In this document: piece after piece, positions 49,580-55,888 of the stretch
Numbering within the stretch: the first letter of the stretch is position 1
Layout of the letters: each line of letters starts with the position of its first letter
Source: the human T2T-CHM13v2.0 reference genome, Homo sapiens
Assembly: GCF_009914755.1 (NCBI RefSeq)
Contig: NC_060925.1
Direction: 5' to 3' (one strand)
DNA: 64,000 nucleotides
Program-made: the position numbers and the translations under genes
The notes under the pieces: generated by a model
Told to the model about the DNA's origin: nothing
The model's database searches: none
What the model saw: the letters and a program-made list of their open reading frames with translations, nothing else

Positions 49580-50476
49580 GTAATAAAACTTATTCCTGGT
49601 ATTGTATTTGTATTTTTTCTATTAGGATATAGCATTGTTTTATTCTGAAATGAATTCAGTATATTAGTACTGATATGAATCAAATAAATCATTCTTTCAA
49701 GAAAAGATAGCCATGCTTGAAAATCTCTTTCAGGTCACAAGGGTAACAAAATAATTAAAAAGTGTTTCTCTTTAGTTATCATATGTATATTATTCAATAA
49801 AAGGCCTATAGAAAAAAAAATGCCGAGATTACACACATTGCACTAGTCATTGAACTGATAGGTGAGCTAATGAATGGACTTAAAGATCTGAAACCATGCC
49901 ACCTACAATAGTGGTATGTATGGAATACTCCAGTAACATAAATGAAAGAACAACTCAGTTGGATGGGTTGGATCAGCTAAAGCTCAAAGAAGAGGTAACA
50001 TTTAGTTTGATTACTAACTGTAAAATAGAAGCTCTTGGGGTATGTTTATTAGGAGAGGTCATTCTGGGCAGAGGATGAGAAGAAGCAAAAATATGTAAGA
50101 GTGAACATGCTGAAGGTTAAGGAATTCAGTGTAACCGTAACAAAGGATGCCTTCCAGAATGTGGCTGGAGATTAAGATGGATAAAAGGTAGAACAAGTCC
50201 AAGTTGAAAAGGTCTTGTGTGCCATGTGAAAAGGTTAACATCTATTACATAGACAAGGGAAATCCATTGGAAATTTGAAGAAGGGGATTGAGCATAATGA
50301 AACTTGTTTTGGAAAAATATGTTGTTATTAATGTGGAGGTGGGCAAGAATGAGAATAATCAGTAGCAATGAGGTGTCAATAATTTGATACTGTCTACATG
50401 GAAGACAGTGATTAGAGCCATGGAAGTCAGAATGAAAAATGATAAATGTGAAAACATTCTAGAGAAGAAATGAATA

Positions 50477-50938
50477 CGCGAAGGCCCGTGGTGGGTGATG
50501 ACATGATGTGATTTCTGCCCAGTGCTCTGAATGTCAAAGTGAAGAAATTCAATGAAGGACGGGTAAACGGCGGGAGTAACTATGACTCTCTTAAGGTAGC
50601 CAAATGCCTAGTCATCTAATTAGTGACGTTCATGAATGGATGAACGAGATTCCCACTGTCCCTACCTACTATCCAGCGAAACCACAGCCAAGGGAACGGG
50701 CTTGGTGGAATCCGCGGGGAAAGAAGACCCTGTTGAGCTTGACTCTAGTCTGGCACGGTGAAGAGCCATGAGAAGTGTAGAATAAGTGGGAGGCCCCTGG
50801 TGCCCCCCTGTCCCAGCAAGGGGACAGAGTGGGGCAAGGCCAGAGGTGAAATACCACTACTCTGATTGTTTATTCACTGACCCCGTGAGGTGGCCCCAAG
50901 GGGCTCTTGCTTCTGGCGCCAAGTGCCCGGCCACATGC
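50477..50938 (+). pseudogene. Internal 28S (LSU) rRNA fragment spanning helices ~66-71 and downstream expansion segments; 5' moiety of a chimeric retrocopy
   Basis: Conserved LSU sequences GGGAGTAACTATGACTCTCTTAAGGTAGCC, GAAAGAAGACCCTGTTGAGCTTGACTCTAGT and GGTGAAATACCACTAC; many CpG to TpG/CpA changes. Confidence 0.97.
50586..50600 (+). other. I-PpoI homing endonuclease site overlapping the R2 retrotransposon insertion site
   Basis: Exact CTCTCTTAAGGTAGC. Confidence 0.95.
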
Positions 50939-53900: not shown

Positions 53901-55050
53901 ACTTAAATGTTCGACCTAAAACCATAAAAACCCTAGAAGAAAACCTAGGCAATACCATTCAGGACATAGGCGTGGGCAAGGACTTCATGTCTAAAACACC
54001 AAAAGCAATGGCAACAAAAACTAAAATTGACAAATGGGATCTAATTAAACTAAAGAGCTTCTGCACAGCAAAAGAAACTACCATCAGAGTCAACAGGAAA
54101 CCTACAGAATGGGAGAAAATTTTTGCATTTTTGCAATCTTCTCATCTGACAAAGGGCTAATATCCAGAATCTACAAAGAACTCAAACAAATTTACAAGAA
54201 AAAAACAAACAACCCCATCAAAAAGTGGACAAAGGATATGAACAGACACTTCTCAAAAGAAGACATTTATGCAGCCAACAGACACGAAAAAATGCTCATC
54301 ATCAATGGCCATCAGAGAAATGCAATCAAAACCACAATGAGATACCATCTCACACCAGTTAGAATGGTGATCATTAAAAAGACAGGAAACAACAGGTGCT
54401 GGAGAAGATGTGGAGAAATAGGAACACTTTCACACTGTTGGTGGGACTGTAAACTAGTTCAACCATTGTGGAAGACAGTGTGGCGATTCCTCAAGGATCT
54501 AGAACTAGAAATACCATTTGACCTAGCCATCCCATTACTGGGTATATACCCAAAGGATTATAAATCATGCTGTTATAAAGACACATGCACACGTATGTTT
54601 ATTGTGGCATTATTTACAATATCAAAGACTTGGAACCAACCCAAATGTCCATCAGTGTTAGACTGGATTAAGAAAATGTGGCACATATACACCACGGAAT
54701 ACTATCCAGCCACGAAAAATGATGAGTTCATGTCCTTTGTAGGGACATGGATGAAGCTGGAAACCACAATTCTCAGCAAACTATCACAAGGACAAAAAAC
54801 CACACACCGCATGTTCTTACTCACAGGTGGGAATTGAACACTGAAAACACTTGGACACAGGAAGAGGAACATCACACACCGGGGCCTGTTGTGGGGTTGG
54901 GGGAGGGAGGGAGGGATAGCATTAGGAGATATACCTAATGTAAATGACGCGTTAATGGGTGCAGCACACCAACATGGCACATGTATACATATGTAACAAA
55001 CCTGCACATTGTGCACATGTACCCTAGAAGTTAAAGTATAATAAAAAAAA
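50939..55050 (+). mobile_element. 5'-truncated L1PA (about L1PA4): last ORF1 codons, spacer, disrupted ORF2, 3'UTR and poly(A)
   Basis: ORF1 end CATGCCAAATTGTAA; ORF2 start MTGSNSHITILTLN at 51018; RT motif [10 protein letters not shown]; 3'UTR G-tract; TAAAGTATAATAAAAAAAA end; frameshifts and a stop in ORF2. Confidence 0.97.
52295..54160 (+). pseudogene. L1 ORF2 remnant, 621-aa open segment containing the reverse transcriptase domain
   Basis: ORF track: [25 protein letters not shown] and LFADDM motifs; QGCPLSP motif altered to SGLLSP. Confidence 0.92.
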
Positions 55051-55888
55051 GAATAGGATTTAACAATGAATTGGACTAATAGAATTTGTAGATGAATGGA
55101 ATTCAGGATCTCAAGGAGACTGAGAATGAATGATTGATTTAAAATTTTAGTTTGGACAATTTGACCATGCTAATCGAAAAGTAGAAGAGCTTTTCGAAAT
55201 TCAGGAAAAAAGGTTGAACTTAATTTTGCAATTGTAAAGTTGAGGTTCCAGGCACACAATGGAGTGAATAGAGTAGATAGTTTTATTAGGCTGGCTTGGT
55301 GACCTTGGACATCTTTCTTAAATTATTTGAGCTCAGTTTCTGCATCTATAAAATGGGGTTCACAGTATCCGTTTTATGGAGTTAATATAACTAAACATCT
55401 TGAGCAGTGCTTTATACATGGTATACAGCAAATTTATATACTCAATAAATTTACATACAATATACATACGTATGCATACCTATATACACATATGTATACA
55501 CCATTGTGCTAAAAAGAGCTATGCTGGAGATTAAAATTTTCATCATCAAGAAATCAGTTGTAATTCATCTTTGAGTGTGAATGGAATATTTGAGGGCAGA
55601 TGTAGAGAGTGGGAAGAGATGGCTGAGGAGAGAGCCTGGTTGTATCAACTAAAAAAGAGGAACCTATGAGATAGGCTGAGGGCAGAACTCTCAAGAATGT
55701 TGGAGAAGAACTGAAAGAGACATTTTAGTAGACGCCAAGCGAGGATGGAGTTTTCTAAACAGGAGTGGCTAACAGCGGATGCCGTAGATGGACTCATACA
55801 ACTCGGAGTAAAGGAATTCCTGGCTTTTGTTAATGAGGAGGGCTTTGGTGGCCTTGCCAGAAGAATTTAAGCAAAACAATGGGAGAGG

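What the first reader, a model, noticed from the sequence alone, without database searches (positions are those of the whole stretch)
50468..55055. 28S rRNA-L1 chimeric retrocopy in RYR2 intron 35, apparently one insertion event
Seen: an internal 28S fragment (50477-50938) is fused without a spacer and in the same orientation to an L1PA that begins in the last codons of ORF1 (50939, acatgccaaattgtaa) and runs to poly(A) at 55050. The junction reads acatgc-acatgc. The whole unit is bracketed by aaatgaata (50468-50476) and aaaagaata (55047-55055), and the joined flanks read like one continuous L2-like sequence. Established: L1 reverse transcription produces bipartite retrogenes such as U6-L1, U3-L1 and 5S-L1 by template switching or RNA ligation. 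Inference: L1 ORF2p switched from L1 mRNA to the 28S rRNA of a ribosome. The switch lies next to the ORF1 stop codon, where ribosomes terminate and reinitiate, and the captured rRNA includes helix 69. This could be a fossil of a ribosome-associated L1 RNP. It is an internal 28S piece, unlike the usual 3'-end rRNA retrocopies. The ribosome-position link is speculative from a single example.
Basis: partly seen in the sequence, partly recalled or inferred. Interest (0 to 1): 0.85.

Follow-up and report, generated by a model that had tools for sequence, protein, structure and literature searches.

The report
Known 28S rRNA–LINE-1 chimeric insertion
A piece of 28S ribosomal RNA and a truncated LINE-1 were copied into an RYR2 intron as one unit about 20-30 million years ago, and this locus and its class are already catalogued in print.

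Summary
A 462-nt internal 28S piece (50477-50938) is joined without a spacer and in sense to an L1 that starts 12 nt before the ORF1 stop. The L1 runs to a short poly(A), and short direct repeats bracket the whole unit.

It is not new. The locus is a listed row (hg38 chr1:237603009-237607585, L1PA5, LSU 3637-4115) among 18 28S/LINE-1 chimeras in Table S3 of Law & Burns (Cell Genomics 2026), flagged there as arriving together with its L1.

The idea of a ribosome sitting at the ORF1 stop is poorly supported. In 4 of 4 chimeras I aligned, the 28S piece starts at the same nucleotide. The 3' ends are shared in pairs, each at the edge of a predicted GC hairpin loop. The same piece is joined to L1 at four different places, with no microhomology. 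This fits pre-formed 28S fragments joined end to end to broken L1 RNA.

The "acatgc-acatgc" junction repeat is a by-product of CpG decay.

One weak residue remains: 3 of 18 28S chimeras have L1 5' ends near the ORF1/ORF2 boundary, against 5 of 295 other chimeras (window chosen after seeing the data).

The parts
50468..50476 (+). Upstream copy of the target-site duplication (AAATGAATA). It abuts the first 28S base directly.
   Evidence: best match to 55047-55055, 9 nt with 1 mismatch. Only GAATA (50472-50476) is exact if the A's downstream belong to the tail.
50477..50938 (+). Internal 28S rRNA fragment, listed as LSU-rRNA_Hsa 3637-4115. It starts inside the 5' strand of a predicted hairpin stem and ends at the 3' edge of the apical loop of a predicted 11-bp GC hairpin. 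It includes the GGGAGU/ACUCUC hairpin that I recall as helix 69.
   Evidence: Against rDNA, 30 of 81 CpG-site positions and 9 of 381 other positions differ, and two deletions lie in the GC-rich expansion part.
50939..50939 (+). Single A at the junction. It is either an extra nucleotide or a T-to-A change of the L1 base that precedes CATGCC.
   Evidence: the reference L1 reads ...AAAAT|CATGCC; the window reads ...GC A CATGCC.
50940..50954 (+). Last four codons of L1 ORF1 plus the stop codon. This is the L1 5' truncation point.
50955..51017 (+). L1 spacer between ORF1 and ORF2 (63 nt).
   Evidence: ORF2 ATG at 51018-51020.
51018..54837 (+). L1 ORF2, complete in length but broken by an in-frame stop at 51507-51509 and two frameshifts.
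   Evidence: pieces 51003-51509, 51510-51962, 51899-54160, 54049-54837. (Exo_endo_phos, RVT_1).
54838..55042 (+). L1 3' UTR.
55043..55050 (+). Short poly(A) tail (8 A).
55047..55055 (+). Downstream copy of the target-site duplication (AAAAGAATA). It overlaps the tail; the exact core GAATA is at 55051-55055.

Best explanation
This is one L1-mediated chimeric insertion of the published 28S rRNA/LINE-1 class.

Proposed mechanism: a pre-existing, discrete fragment of 28S rRNA (consensus positions about 3637-4115) was joined by its 3' end to the 5' end of an L1 RNA broken 12 nt before the ORF1 stop. The join was made either by an RNA ligase before reverse transcription, or by ORF2p jumping end to end from the broken L1 template onto the 3' end of the fragment. 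Target-primed reverse transcription started in the L1 poly(A) at a nick in the RYR2 intron, ran through L1 into the 28S piece, and stopped at the 5' end of the fragment. The cDNA was then joined to the target, leaving a short duplication.

Shown here: the anatomy, the exact boundaries against rDNA, the recurrence of those boundaries in independent loci, and the lack of microhomology.

Taken from print: co-arrival of the two parts in primates.

Inferred: that the fragment existed before joining (about 65% likely, given a single event), and which of ligation or template jump made the join (open).
For: 1. The locus is listed in Table S3 of Law & Burns (PMC13174262). The row reads L1PA5, chr1:237603459-237607585, LSU-rRNA_Hsa:3637-4115, proximity = 1, MSA prediction = 1. 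It is the only chr1 place with the conserved 38-mer among the 100 of 222 exact places that one search lists.

2. There is no spacer, poly(A) or inner repeat between the parts, and the direct repeat abuts the first 28S base.

3. In 4 of 4 chimeras aligned to rDNA (chr1, chrX, chr8, chr11), the 28S piece begins at the same nucleotide (CGCGAAGG...) right after the flank. These 4 were taken from the 6 of 18 listed rows that start at 3625-3637.

4. The 3' ends are shared to the nucleotide in pairs. chr1 and chrX end after GGCCGCGCGC; chr8 and chr11 end after GGCC(T)TGC. Both sites lie at the 3' edge of a predicted apical hairpin loop.

5. The L1 join points differ: 12 nt and 75 nt before the ORF1 stop, and window-L1 positions about 790 and 2436. 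None of the 4 junctions has microhomology.

6. The chrX twin is independent. It has its own exact 10-nt duplication AAGAATTTTT and a TT/AAGA nick site.

7. CpG decay of the 28S pieces follows the age order of the attached L1 families: chrX/L1PA2 10 of 87, chr8 10 of 58 and chr11 11 of 54 (L1PA3), chr1/L1PA5 30 of 81.

8. 15 of 18 listed 28S pieces are in sense to their L1.
Against: - I could not look at any other primate, so co-arrival rests on the printed flag alone. The paper left the duplication columns blank for this row.
- The duplication is short and imperfect (5 exact, or 9 with 1 mismatch) and A-rich. The nick site (AG/AAAT or AT/GAAT) is not the textbook TT/AAAA.
- The shared 5' end lies inside a predicted helix stem. 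A single-strand nuclease is not expected to cut there, so it may be a reverse-transcription stop rather than an RNA end.
- The hairpin folds are single-sequence predictions with unremarkable z-scores (-1.29, 0.38, -1.18).
- No such 28S fragment was shown to exist as RNA.
- The L1 part could not be dated on its own because no family consensus was available.
Confidence: 0.8

Rival explanations
1. During reverse transcription ORF2p switched from L1 mRNA into the 28S rRNA of an intact ribosome paused at the ORF1 stop, so that the join point records where the ribosome sat.
For: - The L1 5' end is 12 nt before the ORF1 stop.
- In Tables S2 and S3, L1 spans of 4000-4250 bp occur in 3 of 18 28S chimeras (4045, 4127, 4204) against 5 of 295 others. 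Fisher one-sided p = 0.0075. Without this locus it is 2 of 17, p = 0.050. For L1HS-L1PA6 only it is 3 of 11 against 0 of 55, p = 0.0036.
Against: - The same 28S fragment is joined to other L1 positions, and 15 of 18 L1 spans lie outside that window, from 128 to 6159 bp.
- Both ends of the 28S piece recur to the nucleotide in independent events. That is not expected of a switch into a large folded rRNA.
- The size window was chosen after seeing the data.
- Spans are RepeatMasker lengths, not mapped L1 positions.
- Part 3 of 3 of Table S3 was not read.
Confidence: 0.07
2. Two separate events: a 28S retrocopy and an L1 landed next to each other by chance, or one inserted at the edge of the other.
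For: L1 is abundant and adjacency can arise by chance. The duplication is weak.
Against: - The 28S piece has no poly(A) or A-rich tail, and neither part has its own flanking repeat.
- No 28S sequence resumes after the L1.
- The catalogue flags the two parts as contemporaneous.
- Three more loci show the same architecture.
Confidence: 0.03
3. A copy of an older chimera, made by segmental duplication or by retrotransposition of a chimeric transcript. This locus and the chrX twin would then share one origin.
For: chr1 and chrX carry the same 28S piece, and both keep the whole of ORF2.
Against: - The L1 join points differ by 63 nt.
- The flanks and duplications differ.
- The L1 families (L1PA5 and L1PA2) and the CpG decay (30 of 81 against 10 of 87) differ.
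- The left flank has no second copy in the genome.
Confidence: 0.03
4. DNA-level capture: a stray 28S cDNA or rDNA fragment was inserted as filler while the 5' end of an ordinary truncated L1 insertion was being repaired.
For: There is no microhomology, and there may be one extra base at the junction.
Against: Filler capture predicts no orientation bias and no recurrent ends. Yet 15 of 18 pieces are in sense and the ends recur to the nucleotide.
Confidence: 0.05

Closest known systems
[quoted passage not shown]
   Same: Everything. This locus is one of their 18 rows. The text states that fragments often start around 3,636, that 83% are in sense, and that RNA ligation or template switching is the likely origin. 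It highlights 3,636-4,115 as the most often incorporated region (passages seen; Table S3).
   Different: The paper gives no duplication for this row. In the passages and term counts I saw, it has no mention of 'ORF1 stop', 'inter-ORF' or 'microhomolog'. The nucleotide-level junctions and the shared 3' ends are my additions.
U6/L1, U3/L1 and 5S/L1 chimeric retrogenes (cited in that paper; Moldovan et al. 2019 on RNA ligation seen only in reference lists)
   Same: A cellular RNA lies 5' of a 5'-truncated L1, and one poly(A) and one duplication serve the whole unit. For U6 and U3 the partner is in sense.
   Different: U6 is a full-length small RNA with a natural defined 3' end. Here the partner is an internal 0.48-kb piece of a 5-kb rRNA, so both of its ends have to be made first. 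The L1 parts attached to 28S are longer (median 1752 against 630 bp, Mann-Whitney p = 0.006).
Plain 28S retropseudogenes (Wang, Pirtle & Pirtle 1997; Munro et al. 1986; seen only in the reference list)
   Same: 28S sequence copied into the genome by the L1 machinery.
   Different: According to the paper's supplementary figure legend, genomic 28S insertions mostly start at the end of 28S. This is an internal piece with no tail of its own.
L1 5' transduction
   Same: Foreign sequence lies directly 5' of L1 within one insertion.
   Different: Transduction needs a full-length L1 read through from upstream genomic DNA. Here the L1 lacks its 5' UTR and nearly all of ORF1, and the extra part is rRNA.

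Membership tests
28S rRNA/LINE-1 chimeric insertion (Law & Burns 2026) | RNA-derived non-L1 segment directly 5' of an L1 (within 50 bp) | tested here: met
   The 28S homology ends at 50938 and the L1 starts at 50939/50940.
28S rRNA/LINE-1 chimeric insertion (Law & Burns 2026) | The segment is 28S rRNA | tested here: met
   Rfam 276.8 bits; 87% identity to rDNA units of the same genome.
28S rRNA/LINE-1 chimeric insertion (Law & Burns 2026) | Both parts arrive at the same time point in a multi-species alignment | not testable with these tools
   No primate genomes were available. The printed table gives found_by_msa_prediction = 1 for this row.
28S rRNA/LINE-1 chimeric insertion (Law & Burns 2026) | Target-site duplication of at least 7 bp around the whole unit | tested here: inconclusive
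   9 nt with 1 mismatch, or 5 nt exact. The columns are blank in the table.
28S rRNA/LINE-1 chimeric insertion (Law & Burns 2026) | ORF2p endonuclease motif at the nick (their rule: 1T/3A) | tested here: inconclusive
   AG/AAAT if the duplication is 9 nt (no T upstream). AT/GAAT if it is 5 nt (one T, two A's).
28S rRNA/LINE-1 chimeric insertion (Law & Burns 2026) | L1 3' end with a poly(A) tail | tested here: met
   3' UTR, then 8 A's at 55043-55050.
U6/L1-type chimeric retrogene | The 5' partner is a complete small RNA | tested here: not met
   The partner is an internal fragment, 3637-4115 of 5035.
L1 5' transduction | Full-length L1 with upstream genomic sequence | tested here: not met
   The L1 begins 12 nt before the ORF1 stop.

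The most novel reading that the evidence does not exclude
28S/L1 chimeras may be fossils of RNA breakage and repair on translating L1 RNPs. On this reading, 28S is cut at exposed hairpin loops of an expansion segment (ends at about 4011 and 4115), and L1 RNA is cut preferentially around the ORF1/ORF2 boundary, where ribosomes terminate and restart. An RNA ligase of the RTCB type then joins the pieces before ORF2p copies them.

The evidence does not exclude this. The 3' ends sit at predicted loop edges. The junctions lack microhomology. 3 of 18 L1 ends fall near the boundary against 5 of 295 in other chimeras. RTCB is reported to reseal breaks in ribosomal 28S (bioRxiv 10.64898/2026.05.26.727988, passages seen).
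Probability: 0.08. Interest if true: 0.65.

Novelty: already known. Interest (0 to 1): 0.3.

Why it matters
As a finding it adds nothing to the catalogue, because both the class and this exact locus are in print.

The small gain is mechanistic. In the four loci inspected, the 28S partner behaves like a discrete RNA species with fixed ends rather than a random stretch of rRNA, and it is joined to L1 without microhomology. That brings 28S chimeras closer to the U6/L1 ligation model. It also gives three precise 28S positions that can be looked for in RNA end-mapping data.

The weak clustering of L1 ends at the ORF1/ORF2 boundary is worth one properly pre-specified census and no more.

Tried and rejected
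- **Human 28S reference from public prokaryote contigs.** The 38-mer scan gave 18 loci, none mammal-like (best 92% over 234 nt). The viral collection gave 0. This was superseded by the window's own genome.
- **L2 continuity of the flanks.** The joined flanks gave only three chance-level hits in the window (E 0.056-0.40). The left flank matches only itself in the genome. No conclusion.
- **Listing mutated 28S retrocopies by pattern with up to 3 mismatches.** The 228 places are sorted so that only exact rDNA copies appear among the 100 listed. The 6 inexact places stayed unseen.
- **Locating the chr14, chr7, chr6 and chr2 chimeras.** Not attempted further.
- **Dating the L1 part.** No family consensus was available and I built none. 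I used only the order of CpG decay of the 28S parts.
- **Cause of the shared 5' end at 3636|3637.** I considered and dropped a modified base. I recall no blocking modification there, but that is recall and not a test.
- **Papers on RNA ligases and 28S integrity**. They give no break sites matching these ends in the passages I saw.
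Full report
**What is there**

Window 50477-50938 is 28S rRNA. Rfam gives LSU_rRNA_eukarya at 276.8 bits, E 2.1e-72. 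The nominal hit spans 50268-51070, but only about 50477-50938 is aligned with high posterior probability.

The window's own assembly can be searched. Of 1763 first-look candidates, 40 were scored: this locus plus 39 rDNA units on contigs 13 and 15, each 87% identical over query bases 1-456. BLAST against one rDNA unit (L020) gives 87.3% over 481 columns, covering window 50477-50932. The three-way alignment carries the homology on to 50938.

The L1 follows on the same strand with no spacer. Bases 50940-50954 are the last four ORF1 codons and the stop, by comparison with a reference L1 copy that ends ...NHAKM*. The ORF2 ATG is at 51018. ORF2 runs to 54837 in four pieces, broken by one in-frame stop and two frameshifts. 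Pfam finds Exo_endo_phos and RVT_1 in 2 of the 5 pieces scanned.

A 205-nt 3' UTR and eight A's end the element at 55050. The best flanking repeat is AAATGAATA / AAAAGAATA (9 nt, 1 mismatch). The other readings are 12 nt with 2 mismatches, or GAATA exact if the A's belong to the tail.

**It is already in print**

[quoted passage not shown] I read passages by term search, Table S3 parts 1-2 of 3 and Table S2 in full. I saw no figures and none of the PDF supplements.

[quoted passage not shown] It highlights 3,636-4,115 as the most incorporated region and attributes the chimeras to RNA ligation or template switching.

Row 3 of sheet LSU-rRNA_Hsa reads: chr1:237603459-237607585 (+), L1PA5; non-L1 part chr1:237603009-237603464 (+), LSU-rRNA_Hsa:3637-4115; found by proximity = 1; found by MSA prediction = 1; duplication columns blank.

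Three things identify that row with this window:
- The sizes fit: 456 bp and 4127 bp, with a 6-bp annotation overlap that matches the ACATGC repeat.
- The consensus range fits.
- This is the only contig-1 place with the conserved 38-mer among the 100 of 222 exact places listed.

**What the junction really is**

Against rDNA, the 28S piece ends ...GGCCGCGCGC. The window reads ...GGCCACATGC, which is three CpG transitions away. The younger chrX copy reads GCACGC. It is a coincidence of decay and not an original microhomology.

One base, the A at 50939, is either extra or a T-to-A change.

**Recurrent fragment ends**

From the table, 6 of 18 pieces start at 3625-3637. The ends repeat too: 4011 twice, then 4115 and 4116. 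I fetched three of these loci from the genome:
- chrX (L051, found by bracketing with a gene anchor)
- chr11 (L052)
- chr8 (L053), both via the 38-mer

In 4 of 4 loci, this one included, the 28S piece begins at the same nucleotide. The rDNA context is ...AAAGCAT|CGCGAAGG. In each case the piece abuts the flank directly. RepeatMasker's 3635 and 3636 are chance 1-2 nt matches of the flank.

chr1 and chrX share the 3' end after GCGCGC. chr8 and chr11 share the 3' end after ...TGC.

Local folds of the rDNA place both 3' ends at the 3' edge of an apical loop: a 5-nt loop on an 11-bp GC stem, and a 3-nt loop on a 5-bp stem. The shared 5' end falls inside the 5' strand of a stem. These are single-sequence predictions with z-scores of -1.18, 0.38 and -1.29.

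The L1 join points all differ: 12 nt (chr1) and 75 nt (chrX) before the ORF1 stop, and about positions 790 (chr11) and 2436 (chr8) of the window's L1. None of the 4 junctions has microhomology.

The chrX unit has its own exact 10-nt duplication, AAGAATTTTT, after a long A-rich tail. It is therefore an independent event.

**Ages**

Differences of the 28S pieces from rDNA:

| Locus | L1 family | CpG-site positions | Other positions |
|---|---|---|---|
| chr1 | L1PA5 | 30 of 81 | 9 of 381 (2.4%) |
| chr11 | L1PA3 | 11 of 54 | 7 of 303 |
| chr8 | L1PA3 | 10 of 58 | 5 of 314 |
| chrX | L1PA2 | 10 of 87 | 5 of 399 |

The order follows the ages of the attached L1 families, as expected if each 28S piece is as old as its L1. 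The L1 part of this locus could not be dated separately. The absolute ages of the L1PA families are recalled and not taken from a call.

**The ORF1-stop idea**

I tallied L1 spans (sum of RepeatMasker fragments) for all 18 28S rows, all 253 rows of Table S2, and the 42 other rows of Table S3 parts 1-2. Part 3 was not read.

| Comparison | 28S chimeras with span 4000-4250 bp | Other chimeras | Fisher one-sided p |
|---|---|---|---|
| All rows | 3 of 18 (4045, 4127, 4204) | 5 of 295 | 0.0075 |
| All rows, without this locus | 2 of 17 | 5 of 295 | 0.050 |
| L1HS-L1PA6 only | 3 of 11 | 0 of 55 | 0.0036 |
| L1HS-L1PA6 only, without this locus | 2 of 10 | 0 of 55 | 0.022 |

The window was set after seeing the data. 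The spans include tails, and older families have other 3' UTR lengths. The other 15 spans range from 128 to 6159 bp.

L1 parts attached to 28S are longer overall (median 1752 against 630 bp, Mann-Whitney p = 0.006). A small excess near the ORF1/ORF2 boundary is left unexplained.

**Reading**

This is one chimeric L1 insertion. The partner looks like a discrete 28S fragment with fixed ends, joined end to end to broken L1 RNA by ligation or by an end-to-end template jump. It does not look like a switch into the rRNA of a ribosome parked at the ORF1 stop.

The paper itself suggests pre-existing 28S-derived RNAs as a source. RTCB is reported to reseal breaks in ribosomal 28S (bioRxiv 10.64898/2026.05.26.727988, passages), which makes the ligation route plausible but does not show it.

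**Searches for prior statements of the added points**

Within the paper there are 0 occurrences of "ORF1 stop", "inter-ORF" and "microhomolog". Two further library searches brought nothing on 28S fragment ends in L1 chimeras (11 papers, 9 listed; 226 papers, 12 listed). Unread supplementary PDFs may bear on this.

**Verdict**

The single-event reading is supported. The ribosome reading is not supported. The finding is already known, and interest is low to moderate.

Noticed in passing
L051:6633-7122 and onward (G000 C23:107501633-), L056: There is a chrX twin (listed in the paper as L1PA2, LSU 3636-4116). It carries the same 28S piece to the nucleotide, joined to L1 63 nt further upstream, with an exact 10-nt duplication AAGAATTTTT. 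It sits inside an older L1 in the opposite orientation: 78% identity over 123 nt just upstream.
   Followed up: yes
L052 and L053 (G000 C11:77819560-77820260; C8:70119440-70120140): The chr11 and chr8 chimeras both read GGCCTTGC where today's rDNA reads GGCCCTGC. Both also differ from rDNA in the GC-rich expansion part. This may record an older state of the rDNA, or a variant rRNA gene as source.
   Followed up: partly
Tables S2 and S3 of PMC13174262 (tally): L1 parts attached to 28S are longer than those attached to other RNAs (median 1752 against 630 bp, p = 0.006). I did not see this stated in the passages I read.
   Followed up: partly
window 55936-55996 (+): A mir-1285-like hairpin scores 38 bits, below the family's gathering score of 56. 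It lies in a stretch the hub table does not list among its longest masked repeats. Probably repeat-derived; not examined.
   Followed up: no
L001:888-1293 (record titled Mangrovicoccus ximenensis, 1.16-Mb contig): Two short pieces of eukaryote-type LSU rRNA (121 and 167 nt; 145.7 and 121.9 bits) lie in a large contig labelled bacterial. They cover the same 28S region as the fragment studied here and are 90% identical to the window over 276 nt. This could be an assembly chimera, contamination or a transfer. Not resolved.
   Followed up: partly
L002, L012, L013, L018 (archaeal MAG records): The 38-mer of the helix-69 region is exact in contigs labelled Heimdallarchaeota, Sifarchaeum and Crenarchaeota, while their flanks are only 74-76% like the window. 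This illustrates how conserved the stretch is between archaea and eukaryotes.
   Followed up: no
window 50939-55050 (+): The 4.1-kb L1 lies in the sense orientation of RYR2 within an intron. I recall this arrangement as usually being selected against; no effect was examined.
   Followed up: no
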